This document shows, one piece after another, positions 13,118-43,923 of a stretch of DNA of 57,259 nucleotides. The DNA comes from Methanobacteriota archaeon (lineage in GTDB: Archaea > Thermoplasmatota > Poseidoniia > Poseidoniales > Thalassarchaeaceae): contig PBPH01000051.1 in NCBI GenBank assembly GCA_002725475.1, positions 1-57,259 of the forward strand, in the 5' to 3' direction. Under the pieces are notes generated by a model, which searched no databases, was not told the DNA's origin, and worked only from the letters and a program-made list of their open reading frames with translations. Within the stretch, counting starts at the first letter, position 1; each line of letters opens with the position of its first letter. The translations under genes and the position numbers were made by a program.

Positions 13118-13133
13118 TGGGAGCGAAAGGAAG

Positions 13134-21944: not shown

Positions 21945-22024
21945 GTTGCCCTACGGGCAAATATTACCCATTCCGCCATCCGAAAAGATTTGAAAGCACC
22001 CCCTCCTCTGAGGTTTTGGTTATC

Positions 22025-23062
22025 ATGGCTTTAGGTAGCGGTATTAGATTGAACAGCGCAATGAGTATCTTATTGGTGGCTCTACTAATTTTGGGTGGGA
22101 TGGCTTCTATGTCATCACTCGAAATGAGCGATGCTTCTGCTTCCGGTGGCAATGAAAATTCTGATGACAGCTCATCTAAAAGTAATTTGAAAGCGGGCTC
22201 CAATGCCGAATGGTTGGACAAATGCAAAGACTACAATCTAGATGATTCGAAAGCAGATTGGTTAGGTTTCAATGAAAGAAGCAGAACAGATTTTCTTAAC
22301 ATTCACCGATTGCAAGAAGTTTCCGAAGATGCTGAGGGAAGAGAATCTGCTGGCAACAATACTGCTGAAACAGAATCTGATGAGGTTGATTGGCATCTAC
22401 CAGATTACGTTACTGTGGTTCGTACGGAGGTAGGTTATACAATCTCAATCATTGATGCTGGTGTAACGAATACTGAGAACTATACTGAAGAGGAATTTGC
22501 AATCTTTCTTGAGAGATTTGGGTGGGAGTCTGAAGAAGACGAGTCCGCTGAAAGGGAAAGAGATAGGGGCGAAATCCGGGAGCGGGTAGCGGATTTGAGA
22601 GAAGCCTGTGAAAATGGTGATGGCGACTCTTGCCGAGAATTGCGTGGCTTGATGGAACGGTTCAGACAAGAGTACGACCAGAGAGATAGGCATGAGCGAG
22701 ATCCTCCTGCACTGCGTCTTGATCATCTTGATGATGGCACTATTATTGCTCATAGGGAATTCAGCGATGGCTCTATTCAGTACGATATTATCAGCACAGC
22801 GGATGATGGTGAGATTACCGTGGTTAGAGTATCTGCATGGGGTACTGAAGTGATTCACCCACAAGAAAAGGGTGAGCACCGTAAAGGAGAGTTTGAGAAG
22901 AAAGACACCTCTGACGCATTCCATAAATTCTCTTCATCTATGTCCGAAGAAGACATCAAGAAAAACTGTCAAGAATTCTTTGGCGACTCCTCACCAAGAA
23001 TGGATATTGATTTCGATAGATTAGATCGAGTTCCAGTAGAACAAAAATCTGAAAGAAGATAA
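22025..23062 (+). CDS. Acidic secreted or membrane-anchored protein of unknown function
   Basis: The listed ORF starts at 21932 and overlaps the previous gene. The ATG at 22025 gives MALGSGIRLNSAMSILLVALLILGGMASMSS (signal/anchor). The remainder is rich in E/D/R. Confidence 0.5.
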   Translation: MALGSGIRLNSAMSILLVALLILGGMASMSSLEMSDASASGGNENSDDSSSKSNLKAGSNAEWLDKCKDYNLDDSKADWLGFNERSRTDFLNIHRLQEVSEDAEGRESAGNNTAETESDEVDWHLPDYVTVVRTEVGYTISIIDAGVTNTENYTEEEFAIFLERFGWESEEDESAERERDRGEIRERVADLREACENGDGDSCRELRGLMERFRQEYDQRDRHERDPPALRLDHLDDGTIIAHREFSDGSIQYDIISTADDGEITVVRVSAWGTEVIHPQEKGEHRKGEFEKKDTSDAFHKFSSSMSEEDIKKNCQEFFGDSSPRMDIDFDRLDRVPVEQKSERR

Positions 23063-24053: not shown

Positions 24054-24287
24054 ATGGCCTCTGCACGGTGTTTAATGACACCTAGAAATTGGTTCGGCGT
24101 TGCCCTAATAATTCTCTTCTTGCCAGTCAATGCCCCTCTTTGGGAAACCGTTTTTGAATTATTTTCAATGGATATTTCTGCAATTCCAATCGTTCCGGTA
24201 ATATTTTTATTCGGTCTAATTATACTATTTTACCCAGCTCGCGATAAACAAACAAGTGATAATCCCAATAATGACGAAGAGGAGTGA
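24054..24287 (+). CDS. Small two-helix membrane protein with an acidic tail (77 aa)
   Basis: Two hydrophobic segments (FGVALIILFLPV..., IPIVPVIFLFGLIILFY). Ends in NPNNDEEE. No homology recognised. Confidence 0.35.
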   Translation: MASARCLMTPRNWFGVALIILFLPVNAPLWETVFELFSMDISAIPIVPVIFLFGLIILFYPARDKQTSDNPNNDEEE

Positions 24288-24359: not shown

Positions 24360-25058
24360 TCAAATTTTTTCAGCAATTGCTAATGTGTTGAGTTGTCCAT
24401 TAAGAAAAGTTTTCCATCTATGGATGTTGAAAGTATGCTTTTTTCCTTCAATATTGATGTTAATTACATTCTGGCCTTCAACTTCAAAAGATTGGGGCGG
24501 AAGTCCCATTCCAAGGCCTATAGCCTTTTGAACAGCCTCTTTAGCTACCCAAACATCGGTAGTTCGTGAAGATGCAATTTCTTCATCATTATCAAATAGA
24601 GATTCTAAAATCATTTTTTCTTCACCAGAAGACATCATGCTGAGAAGATTTCTAGGGCGGGTCATAACTGGTTCGAGATCTAAACCAATATCAGCCCCCT
24701 TAGGGCCCAATGCGGCAGCCGCAAACCCGCCGCTATGGGTGATTGTAATGGAAGGGGCATTTGGGCCGATTAGCCGAGGTCTTCGAAAATCATCACGTTC
24801 AATTATGAATGAATTAGGATTACGCCCACTCTTCAACAATAGATACTCGATTAACCAACGTCCAGCAGCATGTTCTTCAGCTCTCTTAGCAGTAACAAAA
24901 CTCTCGGCTTCGGATGGATCGACGAAAATCAGATTCGATATATTTGGAACTGGTTCGGTAGGGTTAGTGGGTCGAACTCTAATCCAAGCAGCAATGGTGT
25001 CTCTTGGGCACCCATCAGGAAGATCAAGAAAAGCCGGTTCCCCATACTTCAACCACAT
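24360..25058 (-). CDS. 4'-phosphopantetheinyl transferase, Sfp/PfaE type
   Basis: 232 aa. IGLDLEP (GxD metal motif) and WVAKEAVQKA ((W/F)xxKE(A/S)xxK motif) at the spacing expected for Sfp-type PPTases. Lies 29 bp downstream of the megasynthase stop. Confidence 0.8.
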   Translation of the reverse strand: MWLKYGEPAFLDLPDGCPRDTIAAWIRVRPTNPTEPVPNISNLIFVDPSEAESFVTAKRAEEHAAGRWLIEYLLLKSGRNPNSFIIERDDFRRPRLIGPNAPSITITHSGGFAAAALGPKGADIGLDLEPVMTRPRNLLSMMSSGEEKMILESLFDNDEEIASSRTTDVWVAKEAVQKAIGLGMGLPPQSFEVEGQNVININIEGKKHTFNIHRWKTFLNGQLNTLAIAEKI

Positions 25059-25087
25059 GTTAATTCCTCAATTGATAAATTAATTTT

Positions 25088-28000
25088 TTAATTGCGATTT
25101 AGTGTGAATTTTTCCGCATCTGATAGCGGGGCCATTCCCTTTAATCTAAGGCCATTCAATGCCAAAACTGGTTTGCCATTCTGATTAATTATCAAACCGT
25201 CGTGATTTGTGATTCCACCTTCATCTCCACCGATTCTAAGGGTGCGTATTCTCAATGTATCATTTTTTTCTGATTTCCGAATCAATTCAACATGGTCTAT
25301 TCCAATTGGTAGAGATTGTAACTCATCAACTTCCATTGCTGCCATACCCGCATTTTGGAAACAAGCTTCGATTAACATTGGTTGTGCTTCCAATTTCATC
25401 ATTCCATCAGCAAATAGATTGGTATCAGGTAATTGATTTCGATTGAGTGCAATTCCATCAATCCCCTGCATTTCTTCAATCTGACAACCACATATTATTC
25501 CACCATGGGATTGGAATTTCGGCCCGTGGAAGAATCGTTTGTATATGAAATCAGGATTATCTGGGGTGCCATCTTGAGCAGGGATTCCTATTGATGGTAG
25601 GTGCAATAATCCTCGATCAGCGCCAACCTTTAGCATTCTAACAATACCTTCGTGATGCACTCTTGGCTCTCCAAAGGTTTCCCCCGACTTGTTAATCAAA
25701 TCAGATTCTAGATGACATGAAATCCAAACATTATCATCATCCTGCTTAGAAAAATTAGCCACAACTCTAACTTTCTGTTCATCGTGTAATAACTTAACTG
25801 GCAAGCCAAATTTGACATCATTAAATCCTATGACTGTACAAGGCGGCCAAAGTAATTGAGCAGCTTCTGCAAACATTTCCAATGCCATTACTCCTGGGTG
25901 ATAAGGAACCCCATCAATCGCATGATCAATTAGGAAAGGATATCGATTAACATCAAGAGTACACTCGTATGTAAGTTGATCAAAGTCCTCATGGGAAACA
26001 ATTTTTTCTACAAATGGAAATCGCTTCGCATCTTCCATTAGAGCAGAAACTTCAGGAGAGAGTCTCTGAGGCGGTTTTCTGTCACTCCCATCATCGTTGA
26101 GAACTCCAAGTTGCCCTGCAATTACTACCTTTCTCTTTCCACCACACATTACCTCATCAACAAATAGATTGACACCATTTTCGACTGAGACAGTTTCAAT
26201 TCCCGCCTCTTCAAAGACCTTCTCTATTGAACCCCTAGTCGCCATACCTACATCCCTCCATCCAGTCCATGCCAGTGCAACTCCTTGCGGTTCATTTTCT
26301 GTATGTGCAAGGCGGGACATCTCAGCATCTAGAATACAGTTTGCTGCAGCATAGTCAGTCTGACCAGCATTTCCAAAACGTCCAGCAATTGAAGTAAAAA
26401 CACAACAATATCTGAGCTCACTACTGTAGTCTTTTACAGCGTTAACCAATGCTTGCCAGCCATCGACCTTTACGGCCATAACTTGAGAAAAGGTTGACCA
26501 TTGCTTGTCAGCAACAAGTTTGGAATCTTCAATTCCGGCGCCGTGAATTATTCCAGTGACGGCCCCTCTCTTTTTCTTCAATTTCTTCAAAACTTTTCGA
26601 ATCTGCTTCCCATCTGTAATGTCACATGAATGATAAGAAGCAGTGTTTCCACTTTCACGAATTGAATGTAGGGTTTTGTGGATATCAATTGAACGAGTAA
26701 CTCTTGCCCATTCTCTTTCCCATTCAACAATTGTCACCTTTTCAGCCCCTTCTTGTAATTGCTCTCGTAATGACATCTTCATTTGCTGAAGTTCCTCATC
26801 GCCGGCAGAAATTTTGCTAACAAGGGAATCATCCAATTTGGTACGACCTAGCAACGCAAAATGCACGCCAACATCGAGATTCGCTTCTGCCAATCCAACC
26901 ATGCAGGCAGAAGTTACTCCTGTCCCTCCTCCAGATACAAGTAGAACATCATCAGATTGCAATGATTTCCGTTCTGATTCGTGCGGCTCATCGTAAATAC
27001 AAACAGCCCATCTACGGCCATCCGCATCAATCCCTAGTTCTCTGGGGCCCATCTGGTTAATCTCTTCCAAAATGGTATTGGCCAGGGAACTGGCATCTAC
27101 CAATAATTCGGGTGCGACATCGATTGCCCTAGATCTGATGTTTGGTCTTTCACGACCATAGGACTTTACTATCCCGTGTGCGCCAGCCCCAAGTGCATTG
27201 AATCTATGTCCCCCATTGCCATGTCTTCCGTCAAGAGCGGAAACAGAGCAGACAATTCCATCGTCTCTCTCTGCTAATTTACCATCAATAATTCGCAAAA
27301 CACCAAACAGGCCGTGACAAACCATCTGAGTTTGCTGCCGACTAGTTACTTCAGCCCAAGCCATCCCAGCAAGCGTGCAAGGGGCAGTATGGATTACTCC
27401 GACAACATCTAATGGTGCAAGAATTGCTCCAAACTGGGAGAGATGGGCCTCATTACCAGGGTCAAGCCTGATGATGTCTACCTCTCCATCTTTCTCTACC
27501 CTGATTTTTGATTTTATACTAGGATCTAACATTAGACGTACAGCCTCAGTTCCAGCCATCTCTAATTCTTGACAAATTGCATCACCAAGCCCCCATGAAT
27601 CATCTGTTACAATTAGATATGAGCCCTTCATTTCTATGGGGGCTGGCTCATTTAGTTCAGCTTCCTCTACTTCTACAACCCAACGACGAACTCCGATCTC
27701 ATCCACAACATTTTCCATTGTATTTTCCACAACATCTTGCTCAGGTAACTCAATTTCATCTACAGTTTCATCATTATCATCATTTTCTATTTTGGCTTGA
27801 TTCTGAGGAATACCTACACTCATTGAGATGATATAGGAAATCATATGCGCAAGTGTAGGATAATCACGTAACTGGAAAGATTCGTCAACGGGTAGCGAGA
27901 ACTGCTCTCGGCAATCAGCCATTATTTCAGCCTGTTTTACAGTGTCAATTCCTAATTCGCCTTCTAAATCTTGATCTAATTCAAGGAAATCTTCAGGATA

Positions 28001-31000
28001 TCCAGTATGTTTTACAACGATAGAGAGGACAACATCCTCAACTTCTGAATTGCTATGAATCGGAACCTCCTTTTCATCCGAAACCTCTTCCACCACCTCT
28101 TCAGTCTGTTTTGATTCTGTTTCTTGACTTGGAGTCGATATTGTTGGTTCATTTCCTTGGTCGGACATTGTGCAAATGTATGCAATCATATGGTTGAGTG
28201 TCGGGTGTTCTCTTAACTGGAAAGATTCGTCAACAGGTAATGAAAACATTTCTCGTAAATCGGCCATTATTTCAGCCTGTTTTACGGTGTCAATCCCTAA
28301 CTCTCCTTCAAGGTCTTGATCAAGTTCAATAAAATCAGTAGGATAACCGGTATGCTCTGCAACTGTTTTCACAACCTTCACAACAATTTCTTCGTTAGTT
28401 GATTTTGGTATAGTGACTTTACTAACCTCTTCCCGCTTTTCTATAGGGGTAGCCGGGATTTCGTTAGTTTTGATTTCAGTCACATTCTTTTCTTCAATTT
28501 TAGTTACTTTAGTGACAGGTTTAGAGTTTGAATCTGGTGCTGCATCCTGCTTTGTAGGAATCCATTCATCGCCATCCACGCCACCGATTAGATTTTCATC
28601 TGGCGCAACATAAGCGACGAGTTTTCTTTCTAAAATACGAGTAACAATGTCGCCTCCAACTTGCGTCCTTGTCCAATTCTCGACACTTTCCTTATCGATT
28701 CTATTTGTTGTTCGAGCAATTCTCTTGAACAATGTTAGAGCAATCTGGCTTCCAAATCCAGCAGCATGTCGGAACATGTATTCGATGTCATAAGAACCAC
28801 CTACTGAGAGCCTCAGATTACCAAGTTCTGGATCCGGCTGCTTGAAATTTGCAATAGGTGGCAGGCGTCCAGATGCTAATCCATACAACCCTGTAGCATC
28901 TTCAATTCCCACCCCCATAGGATGTCCCGTGAAACCTTTCGTATTGGTAATAATTAGATCATCAGCCGATGTACCGAAAGCACCTCTTAATGATTCGACT
29001 TCAGCAGCTGCAGAACCACCACGGGGTGGAGTAAATGGTTCATGCGACATGAAAGTTGTTTGTCGGGCGATTTCGTGTCGGTCAATCCCCCAATCTTTCT
29101 CCATCTTTGATACAAACTCTTCGAAAGTAGTGGCTACGTGATTAACATCTAGTCGAGTGGGGTGGAATGCAGAATTACCAATATGGGCACCAAGTAATTC
29201 CGCATATGGTATAATTCCTCTATCGGAGGCATGTGACGATTTTTCTATTACAAACGCCGCACCACCCATCCCAAGTAACATTCCGTTTCTACGTACATCA
29301 AATGGTAGAGCAACATCCTCTACGACATTACCCATTGAGTGTGCCCCAGCTGCAGCAAAACCAGTACCAATCCATTCCATCAAGTCATCACCAGTTGAGT
29401 CATCCCCGCTAATGACAATGACTCTGTCACATCTTCCCGATGACAACCAATCCTCAGCAATAGCAAAGGCGGCTGGTGTTGATGCGCAAGCGTTGTTTAT
29501 CGCTGCATTTGGCCCTCTTGCTCCTATCCATTGAGCAAATTGTGCATGCCCCATTGTTAGAACTTGTAGCAGAAATTTTCGATCAAAAGTACCATCTTCA
29601 TCAGCCCCATTGTTTTGTGCATGGCGCATTGCCATGGCCAAACCAGGCCAAACGGACGCGAATACAACACCAGTACGCTCTTTGATTGTAGATGGGAGGT
29701 TCCAACCTCTCACAAGTCGTTTGCCAGCACTACTCGATTGCTCAACGGGAATTAATGGCAAACCTGCATCTTTCAACGCTTCAAGTCCAGCAGCGAAAGA
29801 AAGAGTCGTTGATACATCCATTGCTGCTACAATCTTGGGATCAATTCCATATTGTTCTGACAAATCAAAATATCCGCCAATTCCTGCGAGTTGAGGTATA
29901 GTGTCAAATGAATCACAAGGAACAAATTCAGCTCTACCATCCTTATGTTTCACAATTCTAACGATGTTTTTATCGAGTAATTTCAATTTGGTTTCTTCAG
30001 GAAGTTCGCTTATGAAATTCTCTCCAGCAATTATTCTTTCTAGCGCATCATCACTAAACACCTCATCCATTCCTGGAAGTCCTAGACTAATTCCAGTAAC
30101 AACATAAGGGTTGATTTGTCGTTCCACAATTGAATTGCTTGCTAATGAAGTTCCCCCCCCTATTTGCTTGACCTTTTTTGTGAAACTAGGGGGTGGTGTC
30201 GTAACCCATTCGACAAGCGCTGATAACGTAGTTAGAGAATCATCAATTGGATGTTTTACAGATGATTCAGAAGAGATTCTGCCAAGTAATTGTGCTAGGC
30301 CCTCTCCAAATATTCCGAGAGTAGTTAGTTCTAATTCTCCTTTTATCATTCGAGCAGGGTACCCACAAACATCTGAAATTCGGTCTGCTAAATAACCTTC
30401 AACATCATCTTCCTGTTCGATTAATTGATTGGTTTGAATTTTGGTAGTAAGTGTAGGTGATTCTATGGTAGGGAAAGGCCTTGAGCGAGTACGCAGTTCT
30501 TCCCATTCTGAACTAGTGATTACTGATTCTTTTGGTAATCCTAAATTCTTCTGCCCCCAAACCTCTATTGGTCCAGCACGGAAACCTTCAGTCAATCTCA
30601 AAGAATCATGAGCATGCATTTCAGATTGTCTTCCCGACAGAGAACAGATGGCTAGAGATGAAAGGAATGATGCCACCCCTCCTACCTTTGGATGGTTCGT
30701 GTTAGTCACAACGAATGGGCGCCCCCCCTCTGATGATGCATTTTCATCCAATATTTGCTCAGCAAATAGAGCCAGGGCTCGTTTCGGTCCGACCTCCATA
30801 AAGAGCCTCCCTCCGCTTTCATACATTGTACGAATCTGTTTGGTCCATTCTACGGCCGAAGACATCTGAGGGGCTAACTGCCCCAGAATCGCCTGTTGAA
30901 CCGATTGATTCTGTTCCAATATTTCTGGATAGAAATTACCATCATAGTTTGCAGTGATTGGAATAGATGGAAGTGAAAGTTCTAAATCTTCAAGAAATTG

Positions 31001-33544
31001 CCTTAGCGGCTCATTAGCAGGGGCAACTATCTTTGAATGGAAAGCATGACTTGTCTGTAACTTTACACATTGTACATTTAATTCGGCAAATCTTCTAATT
31101 GCTTCGTTCATAGATTCTGTATCACCTGCAATAACAGTCATCAATGGAGAATTTTTGTTCGCAGCTATCACATATCCATCTATTGAATTTATCACCTCTT
31201 CAACTCTTTCAATAGGTGCTGTAACACTTGCCATAATCCCTTGATCAGGGACATCTACGTTACCCATTTCAGTCCCTCGAGCAGCAGCAGCTCTCAGAGC
31301 GTCATGGAATTTTAGAATCCCCGCAACCATCAATGCTGCATACTCGCCAAGGCTATGTCCAGCAACCATGTCAGGCTCAATTCCATGTTCAAGAAGAAGG
31401 CGATAGAGTGCTAAGTCTGCAGTCAGCATCGCAGGCTGAGTATATTCTGTCTGTTTCAATTTCTCTTCTGCAATTCTTGCATCCTCTTCTGAAAGATTTT
31501 CTCTTAGCACAAACTCAGAGAGAGTCTCCCCACCTAGGATTTCTATCATAGTGCGGTCCGCTTCAATCCATGTTTCACCCACAACTTCAAATCTCTTTGA
31601 CAAATCTAGTGTCATCCCAACATATTGGCTACCTTGCCCCGGAAACATCTGTACAAGTTTAGCATCAGGGGTGAGAGGTGGGTCATCTGTAATGAATACC
31701 ATCTGTTTTGCGAGGAAAGCCCATTTTGATTTATCAGACAGATTATCTTCAAGTAAATTCAGTCTCTTCTCCAATTGCGCCCAACTTGTGGCAACTACAC
31801 CACATCGGACACCTTCGGCTTTGAATCCATTAGATAGTGCAGATAATGCAACTGAAAGCCGCCGCCCCTCTGGAGAGTCATCAAAAGTTGGTGAAGATGG
31901 GGCAAGAAGCGCAATTTTGGCCATAGTGATTTCATCAGATAGTAAATCTAGAGTAGGAGCATTGAGTAATAGTAATCCACCTTCAATTTCTTTCAATTCA
32001 TCGTGTGTCATTGAAGGTTTGGCGTTTTGATCAAGAACACTGGCAGCAGAAGGTGGCTTGGATTCACTGGTTTTAGAAAGTTCAATTTCATTCACCATTT
32101 TCAGATGATATTCAGGATCATATTGTTCTAGGGTACAATGGAAATTGGTCCCTCCAAATCCGAACGATGAAATTCCTGCTCTTCTGGGTATTCCTGATTG
32201 GGGCGGTGGCCATTCACTGGCCATTGTTGGAACAAAGAATGGGATTTCGTCCCAGTTAACCGAAGTATTTGGCTGTTCAAAACCCGCAGACGGAGGAATA
32301 GTCCTATGATGAAGTGAAAGACAGGCCTTGAGTAACCCTACCATTCCAGCGGCCGCCTTCAAATGACCGATTTGACTTTTTACAGAACCAACAGCCACGT
32401 TATCTCCACCACTTTTCTCTGAGAAAATCTCTGCCAAAGCAGAGAGTTCAGTCGCATCACCTACTTTCGTACTTGTTCCATGAGCCTCAATCAATTCAAC
32501 AGATGATGCAGAGTAACCAGCTTGTTGGTAGGCACGTATTACTGCTTGTTTCTGACCTCTTATCGAGGGTGCTGTAATTCCCTTTCCTCTTCCGTCGCTA
32601 GAAGCACCAATTCCTCTAATAACACTGTAAATAACATCTCCATCACTTATTGCATCTTCCAGCCGTTTGAGGACAATACAACCAGCCCCTTCGCCCATTA
32701 CAAAACCATTAGCACGTGCATCAAACGGGCGTGAATGAATGGGCGATAATGCTCCAATAGCGGAGAATTTTGCATATGTTCCTGGATCCATGGTACAATC
32801 GCTGGCACCACATAGCATTACATCTGTCTGGCCTGTTTGTAGCATTTGACAAGCAGAAACTAGTGCTGCAAAGGTACTTGCACAAGCAGCATCAGCACTG
32901 AAGTTAGGTCCTTGTAAATCAAGAAGGTTTGCAACTCTTCCAGCAACTACATTTGCCAATTCACCAGGCATTGTATCCTCATCAATTCGAGGTTTTCCTT
33001 GAGTAATTGATTCTTTGAATTGCTTAATTTCTTCTTCAGGCATCCCCGCTTCAACAGCTTTCCTTGCAAATTGATCGGCATAGATTCGGTGACTAGACAT
33101 CACTCGATTCTCTCCACCTAGGGCATTAGCAAATATGACGCCACATCTCTCATTTGGCAACTCAAGCCGTTTTCTTTCACCAAGATAACCAGCATCTTCT
33201 AGTGCAGAGGCGGACACCTCAACTGCCCATAATTGAGTATCATCAATTTGTTCAAGTGTGCCTGGTGGCTGTTTCCATCTTCGCCAATCAAACTCAAAAT
33301 TCTCTATAAATGCCCCAATTTTTGAGTACGTCTTGTTTTCTAACACATTACCGGGTTCCCCTTCAACCCAGAAGTCATCAGTATTCCATCTATCATGTGG
33401 TACTTCTTTAATCGAAACATGTGCATTAATCACATTATCCCAGAATTTGTCAATATCTGGTGCGTCTGGCAGTAGTGCTGATACACCAACGATTGCAATC
33501 GGTGAGAATGATTGCTGGGGCTTTTCTTCAAGTTGGTTACTCAT
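25088..33544 (-). CDS. Type-I fatty-acid/polyketide (PfaA-like) megasynthase: KS - AT - degenerate ACP-like - KS - ACP - ACP - KR - DH
   Basis: Single 2818-aa ORF. The catalytic motifs listed in the domain features below are all intact. I verified the codons of Cys221 (tgt, 32882-32884), Ser731 (agc, 31352-31354) and Cys1353 (tgc, 29486-29488) in the DNA. Confidence 0.9.
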   Translation of the reverse strand: MSNQLEEKPQQSFSPIAIVGVSALLPDAPDIDKFWDNVINAHVSIKEVPHDRWNTDDFWVEGEPGNVLENKTYSKIGAFIENFEFDWRRWKQPPGTLEQIDDTQLWAVEVSASALEDAGYLGERKRLELPNERCGVIFANALGGENRVMSSHRIYADQFARKAVEAGMPEEEIKQFKESITQGKPRIDEDTMPGELANVVAGRVANLLDLQGPNFSADAACASTFAALVSACQMLQTGQTDVMLCGASDCTMDPGTYAKFSAIGALSPIHSRPFDARANGFVMGEGAGCIVLKRLEDAISDGDVIYSVIRGIGASSDGRGKGITAPSIRGQKQAVIRAYQQAGYSASSVELIEAHGTSTKVGDATELSALAEIFSEKSGGDNVAVGSVKSQIGHLKAAAGMVGLLKACLSLHHRTIPPSAGFEQPNTSVNWDEIPFFVPTMASEWPPPQSGIPRRAGISSFGFGGTNFHCTLEQYDPEYHLKMVNEIELSKTSESKPPSAASVLDQNAKPSMTHDELKEIEGGLLLLNAPTLDLLSDEITMAKIALLAPSSPTFDDSPEGRRLSVALSALSNGFKAEGVRCGVVATSWAQLEKRLNLLEDNLSDKSKWAFLAKQMVFITDDPPLTPDAKLVQMFPGQGSQYVGMTLDLSKRFEVVGETWIEADRTMIEILGGETLSEFVLRENLSEEDARIAEEKLKQTEYTQPAMLTADLALYRLLLEHGIEPDMVAGHSLGEYAALMVAGILKFHDALRAAAARGTEMGNVDVPDQGIMASVTAPIERVEEVINSIDGYVIAANKNSPLMTVIAGDTESMNEAIRRFAELNVQCVKLQTSHAFHSKIVAPANEPLRQFLEDLELSLPSIPITANYDGNFYPEILEQNQSVQQAILGQLAPQMSSAVEWTKQIRTMYESGGRLFMEVGPKRALALFAEQILDENASSEGGRPFVVTNTNHPKVGGVASFLSSLAICSLSGRQSEMHAHDSLRLTEGFRAGPIEVWGQKNLGLPKESVITSSEWEELRTRSRPFPTIESPTLTTKIQTNQLIEQEDDVEGYLADRISDVCGYPARMIKGELELTTLGIFGEGLAQLLGRISSESSVKHPIDDSLTTLSALVEWVTTPPPSFTKKVKQIGGGTSLASNSIVERQINPYVVTGISLGLPGMDEVFSDDALERIIAGENFISELPEETKLKLLDKNIVRIVKHKDGRAEFVPCDSFDTIPQLAGIGGYFDLSEQYGIDPKIVAAMDVSTTLSFAAGLEALKDAGLPLIPVEQSSSAGKRLVRGWNLPSTIKERTGVVFASVWPGLAMAMRHAQNNGADEDGTFDRKFLLQVLTMGHAQFAQWIGARGPNAAINNACASTPAAFAIAEDWLSSGRCDRVIVISGDDSTGDDLMEWIGTGFAAAGAHSMGNVVEDVALPFDVRRNGMLLGMGGAAFVIEKSSHASDRGIIPYAELLGAHIGNSAFHPTRLDVNHVATTFEEFVSKMEKDWGIDRHEIARQTTFMSHEPFTPPRGGSAAAEVESLRGAFGTSADDLIITNTKGFTGHPMGVGIEDATGLYGLASGRLPPIANFKQPDPELGNLRLSVGGSYDIEYMFRHAAGFGSQIALTLFKRIARTTNRIDKESVENWTRTQVGGDIVTRILERKLVAYVAPDENLIGGVDGDEWIPTKQDAAPDSNSKPVTKVTKIEEKNVTEIKTNEIPATPIEKREEVSKVTIPKSTNEEIVVKVVKTVAEHTGYPTDFIELDQDLEGELGIDTVKQAEIMADLREMFSLPVDESFQLREHPTLNHMIAYICTMSDQGNEPTISTPSQETESKQTEEVVEEVSDEKEVPIHSNSEVEDVVLSIVVKHTGYPEDFLELDQDLEGELGIDTVKQAEIMADCREQFSLPVDESFQLRDYPTLAHMISYIISMSVGIPQNQAKIENDDNDETVDEIELPEQDVVENTMENVVDEIGVRRWVVEVEEAELNEPAPIEMKGSYLIVTDDSWGLGDAICQELEMAGTEAVRLMLDPSIKSKIRVEKDGEVDIIRLDPGNEAHLSQFGAILAPLDVVGVIHTAPCTLAGMAWAEVTSRQQTQMVCHGLFGVLRIIDGKLAERDDGIVCSVSALDGRHGNGGHRFNALGAGAHGIVKSYGRERPNIRSRAIDVAPELLVDASSLANTILEEINQMGPRELGIDADGRRWAVCIYDEPHESERKSLQSDDVLLVSGGGTGVTSACMVGLAEANLDVGVHFALLGRTKLDDSLVSKISAGDEELQQMKMSLREQLQEGAEKVTIVEWEREWARVTRSIDIHKTLHSIRESGNTASYHSCDITDGKQIRKVLKKLKKKRGAVTGIIHGAGIEDSKLVADKQWSTFSQVMAVKVDGWQALVNAVKDYSSELRYCCVFTSIAGRFGNAGQTDYAAANCILDAEMSRLAHTENEPQGVALAWTGWRDVGMATRGSIEKVFEEAGIETVSVENGVNLFVDEVMCGGKRKVVIAGQLGVLNDDGSDRKPPQRLSPEVSALMEDAKRFPFVEKIVSHEDFDQLTYECTLDVNRYPFLIDHAIDGVPYHPGVMALEMFAEAAQLLWPPCTVIGFNDVKFGLPVKLLHDEQKVRVVANFSKQDDDNVWISCHLESDLINKSGETFGEPRVHHEGIVRMLKVGADRGLLHLPSIGIPAQDGTPDNPDFIYKRFFHGPKFQSHGGIICGCQIEEMQGIDGIALNRNQLPDTNLFADGMMKLEAQPMLIEACFQNAGMAAMEVDELQSLPIGIDHVELIRKSEKNDTLRIRTLRIGGDEGGITNHDGLIINQNGKPVLALNGLRLKGMAPLSDAEKFTLNRN
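25130..26032 (-). other. Megasynthase domain: PKS-type (double hot-dog) dehydratase (aa ~2505-2805)
   Basis: LIDHAIDGVPYHPGV (HxxxGxxxxP, His2541). The second-half motif PMLIEACFQ is ExxxQ where DxxxQ/H is usual. Confidence 0.7.
26105..27682 (-). other. Megasynthase domain: ketoreductase with structural subdomain (aa ~1955-2480)
   Basis: Rossmann motif LLVSGGGTGVTS (aa 2201-2212) and catalytic region TDYAAAN (Tyr2398), the PKS/FAS-type KR signature. Confidence 0.8.
27815..28048 (-). other. Megasynthase domain: ACP 2 (aa ~1833-1910), Thr1868 at the acceptor position
   Basis: LDQDLEGELGIDTVKQAEIMADCRE. Here the Thr codon is ACT, so it is not a copy artefact of ACP 1. Confidence 0.8.
28160..28399 (-). 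other. Megasynthase domain: ACP 1 (aa ~1716-1795), Thr1753 at the acceptor position
   Basis: LDQDLEGELGIDTVKQAEIMADLRE. The codon at 28286-28288 is ACC (Thr) where carrier proteins normally have the Ser of the DS(L/I) motif. Confidence 0.8.
28715..30109 (-). other. Megasynthase domain: ketosynthase 2 (aa ~1146-1610), active-site Cys retained
   Basis: NNACASTPAAF (Cys1353), an atypical first His box MSHEPFTPPRGG (His1501), and NTKGFTGHPMG (His1541). It is not a Gln-type chain-length factor. Confidence 0.75.
30200..30412 (-). other. Megasynthase segment: degenerate ACP-like region lacking an acceptor residue (aa ~1045-1115)
   Basis: YLADRISDVCGYPARMIKGELELTTLGIFGEGLAQLL parallels the true ACPs (VAEHTGYPTDFIELDQDLEGELGIDTVKQAEIM), but has GIFGEG in place of GID(S/T). 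Confidence 0.4.
30770..31657 (-). other. Megasynthase domain: acyltransferase, malonyl-type (aa ~630-925)
   Basis: FPGQGSQ, GHSLGEY (Ser731) and the HAFH specificity motif (SHAFHS, aa 832-837). Confidence 0.85.
32120..33505 (-). other. Megasynthase domain: ketosynthase 1 (aa ~14-475)
   Basis: IAIVGVSALLPDA...FW N-terminus as in PfaA-type KS, with DAACAS (Cys221), EAHGTST (His355) and KSQIGHLK (His394). Confidence 0.85.
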
Positions 33545-33553
33545 GGTATAACC

Positions 33554-34429
33554 TCAATCTGATATGCTATCCGGTACCATCGTGCTTGAATATCCAGCAT
33601 CTACGTGAATAATCTGTCCTGTGACCCCTGATGAAAGCGGTGAGGCAAGCCAAACAGCGCAGCCGGCAACATCCTTCTGATTCACATTTCTTCGAAGTGA
33701 TGAATTTCTCTCGACATGATTTAGGATGTCATCAAACCCTGGAATTCCACTAGCAGCGAGTGTTTGAATCGGCCCGGGTGAAATGGCATTTACTCGATGT
33801 CCTTCGGGACCAATATGATTGGCTAATTCGCGTGTCCAAGCCTCCAGCGCTGCTTTTGCAATACTCATCACCCCATAGTTTGGAACCCAGCGTGTAGATG
33901 CAGCATAGGTTAGAGTGATTGTAGAAGAGTTGGGTGCAAGGTGTGGTAAAGCATGGCGCATTACTCTCTGTAATGAGTGAGCACTAACCGTCATTGCGAT
34001 GTTCATAGGCTCATTTTCAGCAAAAAGTATTGGTCTGTCGAAACATTCCCTTGGAGCGAATCCTATTGCGTGAATTACAATGTCAGCCTTAGCCCCAGGA
34101 TTCTCAGCTTGCCATTCTGTGAAGAATTCAGCAGTCAACTCATTGGTAGAAACATCGATTGGATAGAATGCCTCAATGGCATCTAAATTCTCTTTCAATT
34201 GGAAAACACGACTCATAAAACGTCTCTGAAAACCAAGAATTAGTTTGCAACCAGCAGCTGCTAATTGTTCGCAAATTGCCCATGCGATGCTTTCCTCACT
34301 AGCGACGCCAAACACTAGTGCAGTCTTTCCCTCTAGTTCCAACATGAAACCACCTGTTCCTCCCAACATCGATTCGCCGGCGACATCGGCTTCAAGACCT
34401 TTGCCCACTCTGTGAAGTGAATGCATCAT
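33554..34429 (-). CDS. fabI: Enoyl-[acyl-carrier-protein] reductase, FabI type (SDR)
   Basis: LEGKTALVFGVASEESIAWAI N-terminus and PNYGVMSIAKAALEA (Tyr-x6-Lys, as in E. coli FabI PNYNVMGLAKASLEA). The homology-consistent start is the ATG at 34345 (MLELEGK...); the ORF is open to 34429. The stop lies 9 bp upstream of the megasynthase start. Confidence 0.85.
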   Translation of the reverse strand: MMHSLHRVGKGLEADVAGESMLGGTGGFMLELEGKTALVFGVASEESIAWAICEQLAAAGCKLILGFQRRFMSRVFQLKENLDAIEAFYPIDVSTNELTAEFFTEWQAENPGAKADIVIHAIGFAPRECFDRPILFAENEPMNIAMTVSAHSLQRVMRHALPHLAPNSSTITLTYAASTRWVPNYGVMSIAKAALEAWTRELANHIGPEGHRVNAISPGPIQTLAASGIPGFDDILNHVERNSSLRRNVNQKDVAGCAVWLASPLSSGVTGQIIHVDAGYSSTMVPDSISD

Positions 34430-34495: not shown

Positions 34496-35383
34496 TCACA
34501 CATATTCCCCATATAGTGCATCAGGTAAATCAATGTGAATTGCACTAAGGGTGGCCTCAGCATCAATTCCCATCCCAATCAAAGAAGAAGACAACTGTTG
34601 TGTTCTTTTTGGCACAGTCTTCGGTCCTAGTACAGCACCAGGTCTGCGAGGGTCATCCATGTAGTCAGTCTCCATTAAGAAACCCCCTTCATTTTGCCAT
34701 ATTGAATTTACAATGTCTTTAATTGCATCTCGTCCCACAACCACTGAAGAAGTCAAACCGTGAGTGTAATTCTTGCCAATGTTTCCATCAGCATGGTGGT
34801 GGATTGCACCAAATCTGGGAAAGCCAACGCTGTCACAAATTTTTGAAATTTCTTTATTCGTCATTTCCCCATTAGAATCTAAATGAAGCTGTGCAGGTAC
34901 ATTGGCTTGTTTGCACATTCCAAGAATTTCGGTAAGTAACTGATCTGCATGTTGAATCACTTCCTCCCCAACATCCCAATGGGGTCGGCCAACCTCGCCT
35001 ACCCCGACAGCAAGATTTTCATCACAGAATTCTATTGCGATTTCTACTGAAGAAATGTGTAGTTCTCCTGCTACTTCATATCCTAATTCTGCAGTTTGAT
35101 GCATCCAAGCTGCTGGATGTGGGCCAAGAACCACGCGAACTCGTAAATCATGTTCGCTACGTGTGTTCTCTGCCATTTCAATGGTCTCTTCATAGGCCCT
35201 ACGAATTTCATCTTCGTTAAGTGGTAAGTTATTGAAATCTGGTTTGTGAACCAATACTAAATCAGTCCCTCCTGCACGTTTGAAATCGAGTGCTGCATCA
35301 AGATATCTTCCAGCCTTATCTAAATGGAAATGGTTGTCAAGAATAGGGCCACTCCAACGCCCATCTGAGAGATTCATTTTCAC
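34496..35383 (-). CDS. TatD-related metal-dependent hydrolase (amidohydrolase fold)
   Basis: 295 aa with the N-terminal ILDNHFHLD (HxH) motif and later His/Asp ligand-like positions (QLHLD, IHHHAD, METDY). Confidence 0.7.
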   Translation of the reverse strand: MKMNLSDGRWSGPILDNHFHLDKAGRYLDAALDFKRAGGTDLVLVHKPDFNNLPLNEDEIRRAYEETIEMAENTRSEHDLRVRVVLGPHPAAWMHQTAELGYEVAGELHISSVEIAIEFCDENLAVGVGEVGRPHWDVGEEVIQHADQLLTEILGMCKQANVPAQLHLDSNGEMTNKEISKICDSVGFPRFGAIHHHADGNIGKNYTHGLTSSVVVGRDAIKDIVNSIWQNEGGFLMETDYMDDPRRPGAVLGPKTVPKRTQQLSSSLIGMGIDAEATLSAIHIDLPDALYGEYV

Positions 35384-35392
35384 CCTCCAATA

Positions 35393-35998
35393 TCAATCTT
35401 CAACATCGAGAACTTCTTCGGAAATATTTTCGTCAATTTCGTCTTCCTCATGTTTTTTCAGTAAAACTTTAACAAACAACTTTTCAGATTCGAATCTTGT
35501 TCCCCAGTGTGTGGCAGCCATTTCAACGAGATTTTTGTGCCTCGCACCAAGTGAAACGCCCCTACCATTGGAGAAAAACAGAAGATCCATGTCATGCATC
35601 TTATCGTTAATTCGAATACAATCTAGTCTAGAATCCTCCTCAAACTCAGGAAAATATTCTGATACTTGATCAATTCTCAAAGGTTGTCCATAATCAAAAG
35701 ATACGACCAGTGGTCCTTTCTCAGTAGTCAATCCCTCGTCAGCCCTGCCTAGTCTTAGTAACATTTCACGAGCAGCAGCCCATGCAATTTCAGAATGATT
35801 GGTGCCGTGAACAACCAATCTTCCGTCCTGATCGACTAGCAATGTGGCGCGTGGATTCTTAAGAGCTAAAATTACAAATTTACCACTTTTTTTGCCTCCA
35901 AGAGTAGTTATCACCTCTTCAGAGTTGAAAGGTTCTGGTGCCGTGAAACGTATCAATTGATTTTCAACGCGAACTTCAACAGCACTTTTTCTAGCCAT
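35393..35998 (-). CDS. Divergent TATA-box-binding-protein-like protein (two TBP-type repeats, acidic tail)
   Basis: 201 aa. Repeat 1 (VEVRVENQLIRF...PRATLLVDQDGRLVVHGTNHSEIAWAAAREMLLRLG) and repeat 2 (LVVSFDYGQPLRIDQVSEYFPEFEED...MDLLFFSNGRGVSLGARHKNLVEMAA) follow the TBP pattern (IENIVAS...EYEPEQFPG...LLIFSSGK.V.TGAKS). Ends in an acidic tail. Confidence 0.5.
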   Translation of the reverse strand: MARKSAVEVRVENQLIRFTAPEPFNSEEVITTLGGKKSGKFVILALKNPRATLLVDQDGRLVVHGTNHSEIAWAAAREMLLRLGRADEGLTTEKGPLVVSFDYGQPLRIDQVSEYFPEFEEDSRLDCIRINDKMHDMDLLFFSNGRGVSLGARHKNLVEMAATHWGTRFESEKLFVKVLLKKHEEDEIDENISEEVLDVED

Positions 35999-36000
35999 AA

Positions 36001-36783: not shown

Positions 36784-36792
36784 TCAACCACC

Positions 36793-38001: not shown

Positions 38002-38031
38002 GATTACACCCTACTGCGTAATACTAACCAC

Positions 38032-43911: not shown

Positions 43912-43923
43912 GTTCCTCACCAT

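What the first reader, a model, noticed from the sequence alone, without database searches (positions are those of the whole stretch)
24360..34429. Complete ACP-dependent type-I fatty-acid/polyketide synthase operon (fabI, 2818-aa megasynthase, PPTase) inside an archaeal chromosome
Seen in sequence: three co-directional genes are separated by only 9 bp and 29 bp. They encode a FabI-type enoyl-ACP reductase (Tyr-x6-Lys), a megasynthase with intact KS (Cys-His-His), malonyl-type AT (GHSLG, HAFH), two ACPs, a KR (GGGTG, YAAAN) and a PKS-type DH (HxxxGxxxxP), and an Sfp-type PPTase. Together these supply every activity of an iterative elongation cycle plus carrier activation. Established knowledge: archaeal membranes are built from isoprenoid ethers, and archaea generally lack ACP, holo-ACP synthases and type-I FAS/PKS. 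The KS-AT-ACPn-KR-DH layout is the hallmark of bacterial PfaA/HglE-type and eukaryotic PUFA synthases. Inference: the flanks carry genuine archaeal informational genes (PCNA 450 bp away, tRNA-Gly, Orc1/Cdc6, archaeal PPAT/DPCK) with similar composition, so this looks like a resident, probably horizontally derived lipid or secondary-metabolite system rather than contamination. The product (fatty acid, PUFA-like chain, alkyl moiety of a hybrid lipid or a signalling polyketide) is unknown. Comparative-genomic work has suggested that some uncultured marine euryarchaeota carry bacterial-type fatty-acid genes. I cannot tell from here whether this exact architecture has been described.
Basis: partly seen in the sequence, partly recalled or inferred. 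Interest (0 to 1): 0.85.

Follow-up and report, generated by a model that had tools for sequence, protein, structure and literature searches.

The report
Bacterial-type lipid megasynthase in marine archaea
Marine Group II archaea carry a three-gene, bacterial-derived fatty-acid/polyketide assembly line (reductase, giant two-ketosynthase enzyme, activating enzyme) that belongs to a widespread but uncharacterised bacterial family, and its carrier domains have threonine where the serine that normally holds the cofactor should be.

Summary
Two things were missed. A second, FabF-like ketosynthase with an intact Cys-His-His sits between the AT and the ACPs. Both ACPs carry Thr, not Ser, at the phosphopantetheine site. 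The layout KS-AT-KS-ACPn-KR-DH plus a downstream PPTase is therefore not PfaA/HglE. It matches the "Type R secondary lipid synthase" catalogued in bacteria by Shulse & Allen (2011), whose product is still unknown. The family is very large: 823 clusters at 50% identity and more than 599 GTDB species, mostly Acidobacteriota, Actinomycetota and Chloroflexota. It is almost uniformly Thr-type. The window is a Marine Group II (Thalassarchaeaceae) MAG contig. The operon is not an assembly artefact: independent assemblies reproduce both junctions, tetranucleotide composition shows no breakpoint, and seven MGII lineages share the synteny. MGII enzymes form one clade nested among bacterial relatives, which fits one ancient transfer. 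In bacteria the reductase slot holds an acyl-CoA-dehydrogenase/ETF module; in MGII it holds FabI. The most likely function is iterative synthesis of a saturated acyl chain. This is a new archaeal variant of a known, uncharacterised kind.

The parts
33554..34429 (-). FabI-like enoyl-(ACP) reductase (SDR), inferred trans-acting ER of the megasynthase. The true start may be an internal Met, since orthologs are 263-271 aa.
   Evidence: Pfam adh_short_C2 E 3e-67. The best NCBIfam hits are all FabI but fall below the equivalog cut-offs (223 bits vs >=299). PDB best hit is Thermus FabI 1ulu, E 4e-54, with Tyr...Tyr-x6-Lys aligned. It sits directly upstream of the megasynthase in 7/7 MGII lineages and in 0/80 bacterial loci.
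25088..33544 (-). 2818-aa type I megasynthase: KS1-AT-(ACP-like remnant)-KS2-ACP(Thr)-ACP(Thr)-pseudoKR-KR-DH
   Evidence: GenBank MBO57965.1 is annotated 'hypothetical protein'.
32009..33505 (-). KS1 (aa 14-512), PKS/PfaA-type ketosynthase with C-terminal extension; Cys221, His355, His394
   Evidence: Pfam ketoacyl-synt E 1e-73, Ketoacyl-synt_C E 2e-40, KAsynt_C_assoc. The triad is invariant in 121/121 orthologs. The closest solved relatives are modular PKS KS-AT didomains (7zma, CurL 4mz0).
30653..31648 (-). Acyltransferase (aa 633-964), malonyl-type: GQGSQ, GHSLG (Ser731), Arg756, HAFH (His833)
   Evidence: Pfam Acyl_transf_1 E 2e-37 and NCBIfam FabD E 3e-54. The motifs are invariant. The link from HAFH to malonyl specificity is established PKS knowledge.
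30236..30415 (-). Possible vestigial ACP-like segment (aa ~1044-1103) with no Ser or Thr at the attachment position
   Evidence: It matches the family ACP HMM only weakly (6.7 bits) and has no Pfam hit. Some relatives carry a genuine Thr-ACP at this position (KS1-AT-ACP-KS2...). This is suggestive only.
28625..30097 (-). KS2 (aa ~1150-1640), FabF-like second ketosynthase with intact Cys1353/His1501/His1541. It is the 'CLF' of the Type R description but is not a Gln-type chain-length factor.
   Evidence: Pfam ketoacyl-synt E 1e-15 on the isolated segment. NCBIfam FabF E 1e-31. PDB FabF 4ddo E 1e-23 with Cys/His/His aligned. The residues are invariant in 121 orthologs.
28160..28402 (-). Carrier domain 1 (aa 1715-1795); Thr1753 (codon ACC, 28286-28288) at the phosphopantetheine position
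   Evidence: Pfam PP-binding. The Thr aligns with the modified Ser of PigH and Streptomyces ACPs. The codon is given.
27815..28057 (-). Carrier domain 2 (aa 1830-1910); Thr1868 (codon ACT, 27941-27943)
   Evidence: The two repeat cores are 73% identical in DNA and use different Thr codons.
26975..27667 (-). Pseudo-KR / structural subdomain (aa ~1960-2190)
   Evidence: It has no Pfam hit, but it is conserved as a block and is recovered by the family HMM in most relatives. The function is inferred by analogy with PKS/PfaA KR structural subdomains.
26135..26962 (-). Ketoreductase (aa ~2195-2470): GGGxGxT, Lys2359, Ser2385, Tyr2398, Asn2402
   Evidence: Pfam KR E 1e-27. The residues are invariant.
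25115..26032 (-). PKS-type double-hotdog dehydratase (aa ~2505-2810): His2541 in HxxxGxxxxP; ExxxQ (Glu2726/Gln2730)
   Evidence: Pfam PKS_DH_N E 1e-8 and PS-DH E 4e-6. The residues are invariant.
24360..25058 (-). Sfp-type 4'-phosphopantetheinyl transferase
   Evidence: Pfam ACPS 38.8 bits (cut-off 25) and 4PPT_N weak. It has no PDB sequence hit. The motifs KR..GRW, ITITHS, IGLDLE and WVAKEAVQK align with the PPTases that follow the bacterial megasynthases. It lies downstream of the megasynthase in 7/7 MGII lineages.

Best explanation
This is the Marine Group II (Poseidoniales; here Thalassarchaeaceae/MGIIb) version of the bacterial 'Type R' pfa-like secondary-lipid synthase. It is an iteratively acting, ACP-dependent type I fatty-acid-synthase-like enzyme. 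Proposed cycle: the Sfp-type PPTase loads phosphopantetheine onto the hydroxyl of Thr1753 and Thr1868 in the tandem carriers. The malonyl-specific AT charges the carriers. The two active ketosynthases (PKS-type KS1 and FabF-type KS2) carry out decarboxylative condensations, probably dividing the work between priming or early elongation and late elongation. KR then reduces, the PKS-type DH dehydrates, and the separately encoded FabI reduces the enoyl thioester in trans. The result is a fully reduced, straight, probably long acyl chain. No FabA-type isomerising DH is present, so PUFA-type cis double bonds are not expected. No release domain is encoded, so the chain is probably handed directly from the carrier to an acyltransferase or hydrolase encoded elsewhere. 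The megasynthase-PPTase core was acquired once from bacteria by an ancestor of MGII and has been inherited vertically under purifying selection. The bacterial acyl-CoA-dehydrogenase/ETF reductase module was replaced by FabI. Shown: gene and domain content, active-site integrity, family membership, distribution, synteny and residency. Inferred: iterative mode, the roles of KS1 and KS2, FabI acting on the megasynthase, Thr as the attachment site, the nature of the product, and the release route.
For: Domains and catalytic residues are intact and invariant in 121 orthologs of 54-89% identity. The AT is malonyl-type and the full KR/DH set is present with an adjacent FabI that has an aligned catalytic triad. 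The fabI-megasynthase-PPTase order, with spacers of about 9-13 bp, is kept in seven divergent MGII lineages while the downstream flanks differ. The same architecture, KS1-AT-KS2-ACPn-psiKR-KR-DH, occurs in about 150 representative clusters and 80 taxonomically labelled bacterial loci. It matches the Type R description KS-MAT-CLF-ACP(3-6)-KR plus downstream PPTase (PMC3098273). In bacteria the slot directly upstream of the megasynthase holds a long ACAD (59 loci) preceded by ETF alpha, ETF beta and an Fe-S/CCG oxidoreductase. FabI holds that slot only in MGII, which fits a non-orthologous replacement of an enoyl-reducing module. MGII is monophyletic within the family, and the MGIIa-like/MGIIb split is reproduced. 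On Thr: it aligns to the Ppant-Ser. It is encoded by all four ACN codons across loci (ACG 101, ACC 88, ACT 18, ACA 14). The only alternative seen is Ser, encoded by TCN, and in MGII proteins every copy carries the same residue. A dedicated PPTase always accompanies it. No FabA/FabZ, PfaB/C/D or thioesterase was found among window ORFs of 110 aa or more.
Against: There is no biochemical or lipid evidence for any member of the family, and Type R products were unknown in 2011 with no later study found. FabI scores below every NCBIfam FabI equivalog cut-off, and its action on a type I carrier is inferred only from adjacency. Typical PPTases are regarded as Ser-specific (my recollection, not verified here), so Thr loading is unproven. 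The absence of a release enzyme and of a demonstrated fatty-acyl lipid in MGII leaves the end product open. KS1 is closest to modular PKS ketosynthases among solved structures, so a polyketide-like product that is partly reduced or hydroxylated cannot be excluded. The trees are NJ with a midpoint root and have no support values.
Confidence: 0.6

Rival explanations
1. It is a dedicated secondary-metabolite polyketide synthase that makes a specialised, non-membrane product such as a signalling lipid, polyol, hydroxy-acid or alkyl precursor, rather than a bulk fatty acid.
For: KS1-AT is closest to modular PKS didomains among solved structures. BGC surveys count such loci as T1PKS in marine archaea (PMC10304266). 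No thioesterase or lipid acyltransferase is nearby. MGII genome papers infer isoprenoid ether lipid synthesis and fatty-acid degradation, not synthesis.
Against: The locus is conserved across both MGII families like a core gene, not patchily like typical BGCs. It has a single iterative module with a full reducing set, a malonyl-only AT and 1-4 tandem carriers, as in high-flux pfa-type lipid synthases. No tailoring enzymes are clustered with it.
Confidence: 0.22
2. It is a PUFA synthase (PfaA equivalent) or a heterocyst-glycolipid-type HglE synthase.
For: The best NCBIfam model is TIGR02813 omega_3_PfaA (863 bits). Tandem ACPs followed by KR and a PKS-type DH resemble PfaA.
Against: The score is below the PfaA cut-off of 1010 bits. 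An extra in-line active KS is present. No PfaB, PfaC (KS-CLF-FabA-type DH x2) or PfaD is found in the window or in six other MGII loci. The reductase is FabI, not PfaD. The carriers are Thr-type.
Confidence: 0.04
3. It is a bacterial fragment mis-binned or mis-assembled into an archaeal contig.
For: All three genes have bacterial affinities, and the window is a MAG contig.
Against: The identical megasynthase with the same archaeal neighbours on both sides (PCNA on one side; TatD, TBP-like and a giant protein on the other) recurs on independent assemblies. The operon's tetranucleotide distance is 0.0159, against 0.0157 +/- 0.0022 for the rest of the contig, and GC3 is 0.31-0.36 throughout. Seven lineages are syntenic, on contigs up to 393 kb.
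Confidence: 0.01
4. It is an inactive relic: loss of the carrier Ser means the enzyme can no longer be phosphopantetheinylated, so it does something else or nothing.
For: Thr replaces the canonical Ser in both carriers.
Against: Thr is the family-wide state in hundreds of diverged proteins. It is encoded by all four synonymous codons and is flanked by an invariant LG(I/V)D-(V/I)K motif. All catalytic residues of six domains are invariant, and a PPTase gene is co-inherited. The only substitution seen is the other hydroxyl residue, Ser.
Confidence: 0.04

Closest known systems
Type R secondary-lipid synthase cluster (Shulse & Allen 2011, PMC3098273): Koribacter, Solibacter, Elusimicrobium, Roseiflexus
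   Same: Both have a single pfaA homolog with KS-MAT-second KS ('CLF')-tandem ACPs-KR, immediately followed by a PPTase gene. The product is unknown in both. Relatives from Korobacteraceae, Solibacteraceae and Chloroflexota share the KS2 domain and the whole architecture.
   Different: The host is an archaeon, whereas the 2011 survey covered 86 bacterial species and no archaea. MGII has FabI upstream instead of the ACAD + ETF-alpha/beta + Fe-S oxidoreductase module, and no adjacent ACC genes. It has 1-4 ACPs rather than 3-6. The 'CLF' retains the catalytic Cys, and a C-terminal DH is detectable. The Thr-type carrier is not mentioned in the parts of the paper I searched.
PfaA of bacterial/thraustochytrid PUFA synthases (pfaABCDE)
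   Same: Both have a PKS-type KS, a malonyl AT, tandem ACPs, a KR with a structural subdomain and a PKS-type DH. Both depend on an Sfp-type PPTase (PfaE). PfaA is the best-scoring NCBIfam model.
   Different: The score is below the family cut-off. A second active KS is in line. PfaB/C/D and the FabA-type DH are absent. The ER is FabI instead of PfaD. The attachment residue is Thr instead of Ser.
ArsA/ArsD type I fatty-acid synthase of Azotobacter vinelandii ('Type P' phenolic-lipid system) and HglE-type heterocyst glycolipid synthases
   Same: These are pfa-like iterative synthases that make saturated long chains which stay on the carrier and are handed directly to a downstream enzyme, without a thioesterase. 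This is my recollection of the literature; the Type P link to phenolic lipids appears. They serve as a functional model for release without a thioesterase.
   Different: Their domain distribution over proteins differs, they have dedicated partner enzymes (type III PKS; reductase and glycosyltransferase), and they have Ser carriers. No such partners lie near the MGII operon.
Type II FAS enoyl-ACP reductase FabI
   Same: The SDR fold, Tyr...Tyr-x6-Lys, and all top PDB and NCBIfam hits are FabI.
   Different: It scores below the equivalog thresholds. It is encoded next to a type I megasynthase in an organism with no detected type II FAS in this window, so it is presumed to act in trans on a megasynthase-bound carrier.

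Membership tests
Type R pfa-like secondary lipid synthase (Shulse & Allen 2011) | Single pfaA homolog with the order KS-MAT-CLF(second KS)-ACPn-KR | tested here: met
   KS1 14-512, AT 633-964, KS2 ~1150-1640, ACP x2, KR 2195-2470.
Type R pfa-like secondary lipid synthase (Shulse & Allen 2011) | PPTase gene immediately downstream | tested here: met
   The ACPS-family gene starts 29 bp after the megasynthase stop. This holds in 7/7 MGII lineages, and a PPTase lies near the megasynthase in 24 of the bacterial loci.
Type R pfa-like secondary lipid synthase (Shulse & Allen 2011) | Sequence homology to the enzymes of the original host groups (Acidobacteria, Chloroflexi, Elusimicrobia) | tested here: met
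   KS2-core relatives occur in Korobacteraceae, Solibacteraceae, Kouleothrix, Anaerolineae and Elusimicrobiaceae MAGs with the same full architecture. The Ellin345/Ellin6076/Roseiflexus proteins themselves were not in hand.
Type R pfa-like secondary lipid synthase (Shulse & Allen 2011) | ACAD/ETF/Fe-S module upstream and ACC genes downstream. This is a context seen here in bacteria and is not part of the 2011 definition. | tested here: not met
   It is absent from all MGII loci. The window's ACAD (36793-38001) is only 31-32% identical to the partner ACADs and is 402 aa rather than ~558 aa.
PUFA synthase PfaA (TIGR02813) | Score at or above the curated cut-off | tested here: not met
   863 bits vs a 1010-bit cut-off, matched in 3 stretches.
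PUFA synthase PfaA (TIGR02813) | Partner genes pfaB, pfaC (KS-CLF-2x FabA-type DH) and pfaD (ER) | tested here: not met
   None were found among the window ORFs scanned with Pfam or in the gene tables of six other MGII loci. Whole genomes were not searched.
Acyl carrier protein (PP-binding, PF00550) | Profile match above the gathering score | tested here: met
   57.2 bits over 2 stretches, cut-off 20.8.
Acyl carrier protein (PP-binding, PF00550) | Conserved Ser in (L/I)GxDS as the phosphopantetheine attachment site | tested here: not met
   Thr1753 and Thr1868 occupy the position that aligns with the Ser of PigH and Streptomyces ACPs.
Acyl carrier protein (PP-binding, PF00550) | The domain is actually phosphopantetheinylated | not testable with these tools
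   This needs mass spectrometry of the native or co-expressed protein.
Enoyl-ACP reductase FabI | Catalytic Tyr/Tyr-x6-Lys and SDR fold | tested here: met
   TYAASTRWVPNYGVMSIAK aligns to TYYASEKVVPKYNVMAIAK of 1ulu.
Enoyl-ACP reductase FabI | NCBIfam equivalog cut-off | tested here: not met
   The best score is 223 bits (PRK07370, cut-off 391), and the lowest FabI cut-off is 299.
Sfp-type PPTase | ACPS domain above cut-off plus the motifs GxD(x)E and WxxKE(A/S)xxK | tested here: met
   ACPS scores 38.8 bits vs 25. IGLDLE and WVAKEAVQK are present and alignable. 4PPT_N is below its cut-off, and there is no PDB sequence hit.
Chain-length factor (KS-beta) | Active-site Cys replaced, typically by Gln | tested here: not met
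   KS2 keeps Cys1353 in 121/121 orthologs, so it is a ketosynthase rather than a CLF.

The most novel reading that the evidence does not exclude
Two linked readings remain open. (1) The whole Type R family (hundreds of bacterial lineages plus MGII and some other archaea) uses O-phosphopantetheinyl-threonine as the carrier linkage, installed by a co-evolved PPTase. As far as I could find, this natural variant of a universal post-translational modification has not been described. (2) In MGII the enzyme is a de novo fatty-acid source that feeds glycerol-3-phosphate-based acyl or mixed lipids. That would make one of the ocean's most abundant archaeal groups a natural exception to the archaeal/bacterial 'lipid divide'.
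Probability: 0.35. Interest if true: 0.88.

Novelty: new variant of a known kind. Interest (0 to 1): 0.68.

Why it matters
MGII archaea are among the most abundant planktonic archaea, yet they are uncultured and their membrane lipids are unknown. Published genome analyses report that they lack the gene for the archaeal glycerol-1-phosphate backbone but have the bacterial G3P dehydrogenase (Rinke 2019). Those analyses discuss only fatty-acid degradation. A conserved, intact, ACP-dependent acyl-chain synthase across MGII supplies the missing biosynthetic candidate. It also turns the 'mixed membrane' hypothesis into a three-gene expression experiment. Independently, the near-universal Thr at the phosphopantetheine site of a family with more than 800 clusters at 50% identity questions the assumed Ser-specificity of carrier-protein activation. 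It matters for annotation as well: these proteins are currently labelled 'SDR family oxidoreductase', 'hypothetical' or 'Pks15/1'. Cultured hosts exist (Koribacter, Solibacter, Roseiflexus, Nostocoides, Kibdelosporangium), so the family's product can be determined.

Tried and rejected
1. Chimerism or contamination: rejected.

2. PfaA/PUFA-synthase membership: rejected (below cut-off, no partners; and the context calls).

3. The window's ACAD (36793-38001) as ortholog of the bacterial partner ACAD: rejected (31-32% identity, 402 vs ~558 aa, absent from that position in five of seven MGII lineages).

4. KS2 as a chain-length factor: rejected (Cys retained).

5. AlphaFold2 model of the conserved 260-aa upstream neighbour, made to look for a release enzyme: unusable (mean pLDDT 35, single sequence), so no fold search was run.

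6. PDB sequence search with the PPTase and with the 1963-aa neighbour: no hits.

7. The search for homologous proteins with the sister protein P0173 failed. The retry with its KS2 segment returned mostly short fragments and did not identify P0173's organism.

8. Literature. Ten searches found no paper describing this locus in MGII, no follow-up on Type R, and nothing on Thr-linked phosphopantetheine. Villanueva et al. 2017 and the Beld et al. PPTase review are not held. So 'not described' means not found in this library.

9. Pfam and NCBIfam on the segment between AT and KS2 and on the pseudo-KR: no significant families.

10. Rfam on 22-36 kb: only the tRNA-Gly.

Full report
OBSERVATION. The spacers are 9 and 29 bp. 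Pfam and NCBIfam confirm a FabI-like SDR and an ACPS-family PPTase. In the megasynthase they confirm KS (N and C), AT, two PP-binding domains, KR and a PKS-type DH. The flanks carry archaeal genes: PCNA, tRNA-Gly(tcc), a TBP-like protein, Orc1/Cdc6 and PPAT/DUF359. An exact-sequence look-up shows that the window is a 57,259-bp GenBank MAG contig labelled 'Euryarchaeota archaeon' (proteins MBO57962-MBO57979). There the megasynthase and the PPTase are annotated 'hypothetical protein'.

Reading the translation and scanning sub-segments shows a second thiolase-fold domain at aa ~1150-1640, between the AT and the carriers. It is FabF-like (PDB 4ddo, E 1e-23; NCBIfam FabF, E 1e-31). Its Cys1353, His1501 and His1541 align to the FabF triad. 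Secondly, both carrier domains read ELGIDTVKQAEI. HMMER alignments to solved carrier proteins put this Thr on the phosphopantetheinyl Ser (PigH LGVDSI, Streptomyces ACP LDVDSL). The true architecture is KS1-AT-(weak ACP-like remnant)-KS2-ACP(Thr)-ACP(Thr)-pseudoKR-KR-DH. No thioesterase, reductase or other release domain is present. No FabA/FabZ, PfaB/C/D, thioesterase or acyltransferase was detected among the window ORFs scanned.

IS IT REAL AND RESIDENT? Yes.

- The identical megasynthase, with the same neighbours on both sides, occurs on independently assembled contigs (Tara SAMEA2619907 scaffold_1158 of 41.7 kb, and ERZ27286375 k119_1722861).
- GC is flat at 0.42-0.44.
- The tetranucleotide distance of operon windows to the rest of the contig is 0.0159, against 0.0157 +/- 0.0022 for other windows. 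GC3 is 0.31-0.36 in operon and flank genes alike.
- More than 100 full-length orthologs of 54-89% identity exist. Where they carry a name, it is Candidatus Thalassarchaeaceae, Poseidoniales, Thermoplasmatota or 'Marine Group II euryarchaeote'.
- In a 121-sequence alignment every catalytic residue is invariant: KS1 C221/H355/H394; AT S731/R756/H833; KS2 C1353/H1501/H1541; KR K2359/S2385/Y2398; DH H2541.
- Seven divergent MGII lineages keep the same gene order while the downstream genes differ. The order is [~1950-aa protein without Pfam hits]-[~260 aa]-[TBP-like ~180-200 aa]-[TatD]-(0-1 gene)-[FabI-like]-[megasynthase]-[PPTase].
- A convergent 77-aa hydrophobic ORF and the tRNA close the operon on the 3' side.

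WHAT FAMILY IS IT? A search of the 50%-identity representative library with aa 1001-1800 (KS2 plus ACP1) gave 823 clusters at E <= 1e-30. I annotated the best 150 with HMMs built from the MGII domains. Essentially all have the order KS1-AT-KS2-ACPn-(pseudoKR)-KR-DH or are fragments of it, and nearly all have Thr in every carrier motif.

The best 80 are all bacterial: many Acidobacteriota; Actinomycetota (Acidimicrobiia, Solirubrobacterales); Chloroflexota (Anaerolineae, Kouleothrix, Amarolinea); Calditrichota; Saprospiraceae; Rhodothermales; Myxococcota; Dormibacterota; and Binatia. They have the same architecture and Thr carriers. A further search also named Gemmatimonadota, Elusimicrobiaceae and Steroidobacter MAGs. 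It found the cultured actinomycetes Nostocoides australiense and Kibdelosporangium lantanae, and MAGs labelled Heimdallarchaeota, Halobacteriales and Methanobacteriota.

This is the 'Type R' cluster of Shulse & Allen (2011). They describe one pfaA homolog with KS-MAT-CLF-ACP(3-6)-KR, followed by a PPTase gene, in Koribacter, Solibacter, Elusimicrobium and Roseiflexus, with the product unknown (PMC3098273). That survey covered 86 bacterial species in 10 phyla (PMC4882568). I found no later work on Type R. The megasynthase is not a PfaA equivalog: it scores 863 bits against a 1010-bit cut-off, and the 'CLF' keeps its catalytic Cys.

EVOLUTION. A concatenated five-domain NJ tree (1683 columns, 130 sequences) places all MGII enzymes in one clade. 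Its only sister is one unlabelled, GC-rich protein (P0173, on a 3.0-Mb contig). The clade is nested among Thr-type relatives. Within MGII the tree splits into a clade with 3-4 ACPs and a clade with 1-3 ACPs that contains the window and the Thalassarchaeaceae-labelled sequences. The simplest reading is a single ancient acquisition followed by vertical descent. These are distance trees with midpoint rooting and no support values.

THE REDUCTASE SWAP. In the bacterial loci the gene directly upstream of the megasynthase is a long acyl-CoA-dehydrogenase homolog (~558 aa; found in 59 loci, and directly upstream in 42 of them). It is usually preceded by ETF-alpha, ETF-beta and a membrane Fe-S/CCG oxidoreductase. 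A PPTase and biotin-carboxylase/ACC-like genes follow the megasynthase. A FabI homolog was found next to the megasynthase only in the MGII loci, in none of the 80 bacterial loci and in 7/7 MGII lineages. The ACAD four genes upstream in the window is a generic paralog (31-32% identity, 402 aa) and is missing from that position in most MGII lineages. I infer that MGII replaced an ACAD/ETF-type enoyl-reducing module with an NAD(P)H-dependent FabI. This in turn argues that enoyl reduction, and hence a saturated chain, is part of the pathway.

THE THREONINE CARRIERS. MGII proteins have 1-4 tandem carriers. Motif counts in the orthologs were 248 Thr and 24 Ser. Within each protein the residue is all-or-none, and the Ser forms are confined to two MGIIb sub-lineages. 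Outside MGII, Thr is also the rule, and rare Ser proteins include a Heimdallarchaeota MAG. Across loci Thr is encoded by all four ACN codons (ACG 101, ACC 88, ACT 18, ACA 14), while the Ser variants use TCN. In the window the two copies use ACC and ACT, and the repeat cores are only 73% identical in DNA. So the residue is held by selection, and the only tolerated alternative is the other hydroxyl amino acid. With a co-inherited Sfp-type PPTase whose motifs are intact, the most economical inference is that Thr is the phosphopantetheine acceptor. I could not find this described, but key reviews are not in the library, so prior description cannot be excluded. That typical PPTases are Ser-specific is my recollection, not something tested here.

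MECHANISM (inferred). The PPTase activates the carriers. The malonyl-specific AT (GHSLG, Arg756, HAFH) loads them. KS1 and KS2 condense. By analogy with the two KS activities of PUFA synthases, they may split early and late chain lengths or priming and elongation, but this is speculative. KR, DH and trans-acting FabI then complete each cycle. There is no FabA-type DH, so PUFA-like cis double bonds are not expected. Release is unexplained: no candidate was recognised in the window, and the bacterial loci also lack a conserved thioesterase within 10 kb. Direct hand-off from the carrier, as reported for ArsA/ArsD-type synthases (recollection), is the working model.

COMPARISON WITH THE LITERATURE ON MGII. 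Rinke et al. 2019, Tully 2019 and Pereira et al. 2019 discuss fatty-acid degradation and isoprenoid lipid genes. Rinke et al. also note the absence of G1P dehydrogenase with presence of G3P dehydrogenase. None of the three mentions a PKS, FAS or ACP. A global BGC survey notes only that T1PKS is the second-largest BGC class in marine archaeal genomes (PMC10304266). Another reports polyketide-synthase transcripts from Thermoplasmatota MAGs (PMC9902471). So the genes are in databases and are counted by pipelines. In the literature I could search, however, the locus has not been analysed, linked to Type R, or connected to the MGII membrane question.

VERDICT. The interpretation needs correcting from 'PfaA/HglE-type' to 'archaeal, FabI-dependent variant of the uncharacterised bacterial Type R secondary-lipid synthase with Thr-type carriers'. 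This is a new variant of a known kind. Interest is moderately high, because it gives a concrete and experimentally tractable candidate for fatty-acyl synthesis in a dominant marine archaeal group, and because it exposes a family-wide departure from the canonical carrier-protein Ser.

Noticed in passing
window 34496-43923 (minus strand); also L003, L004, L085-L088: A block of four genes lies directly upstream of fabI on the same strand in all seven MGII lineages examined. It consists of a ~1950-aa protein with no Pfam, NCBIfam or PDB match, a ~260-aa protein with no match, a weakly TBP-like ~180-200-aa protein, and a TatD-family hydrolase. Whether it is functionally linked to the synthase is unknown.
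   Followed up: partly
L005-L084 (bacterial loci), positions -4 to +2 relative to the megasynthase: Bacterial Type R loci share a conserved module that the 2011 description does not include. A membrane Fe-S/CCG oxidoreductase, ETF-beta, ETF-alpha and a long (~558 aa) acyl-CoA dehydrogenase lie upstream. A PPTase and biotin-carboxylase/ACC-like genes lie downstream. This suggests an ETF-coupled enoyl reduction (or desaturation) step.
   Followed up: partly
P0201 (MCY3414055.1), P0349, P0390, P0410, P0412: Megasynthases of the same family, or fragments of them, are labelled Heimdallarchaeota, Halobacteriales and Methanobacteriota MAGs. The full-length Heimdallarchaeota protein has Ser-type carriers. 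There may have been several independent transfers into archaea.
   Followed up: no
P0057, P0058, P0065, P0066, P0070, P0091-P0093, P0096, P0097, P0099, P0115; locus L003: Two MGIIb sub-lineages have Ser (TCN codons) instead of Thr in every carrier copy. These are natural revertants, useful for testing whether the partner PPTase co-varies.
   Followed up: partly
window 30236-30415 (aa ~1044-1103 of the megasynthase): A weak ACP-like segment without Ser or Thr lies between the AT and KS2. Some relatives have a genuine Thr-ACP at this position, so it may be a decayed carrier or a docking element.
   Followed up: partly
window 48259-50942 (minus strand): A stand-alone biotin carboxylase (AccC-like) sits next to a FAD/NAD-binding flavoprotein reductase, about 14 kb from the operon. 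No carboxyltransferase or BCCP was recognised beside it. It could be a malonyl-CoA supply, but no link was established.
   Followed up: no
window 24054-24287 (+): A 77-aa hydrophobic ORF (two predicted membrane helices by eye) converges on the PPTase gene. It is also called in the independent assemblies.
   Followed up: no
window 33554-34429: The FabI ORF has an N-terminal extension of about 28 aa compared with the Rossmann start and with the 263-271-aa orthologs in other MGII lineages. The annotated start may be too far upstream.
   Followed up: no
L087:2309-2758 (minus strand): A 4HBT hotdog thioesterase gene lies four genes upstream of the fabI-like gene, on the opposite strand, in one Ser-type MGII lineage only. 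It is a possible but unsupported release candidate.
   Followed up: no
window 4032-12290 and 19578-21944: Other large genes in the window include an Lhr-type helicase (1009 aa), a 1723-aa CARDB-domain protein and a 788-aa protein with thrombospondin type 3 repeats. Several ORFs of 280-600 aa have no family match (12278-14057, 17018-18265, 21932-23062, 46467-48257).
   Followed up: no
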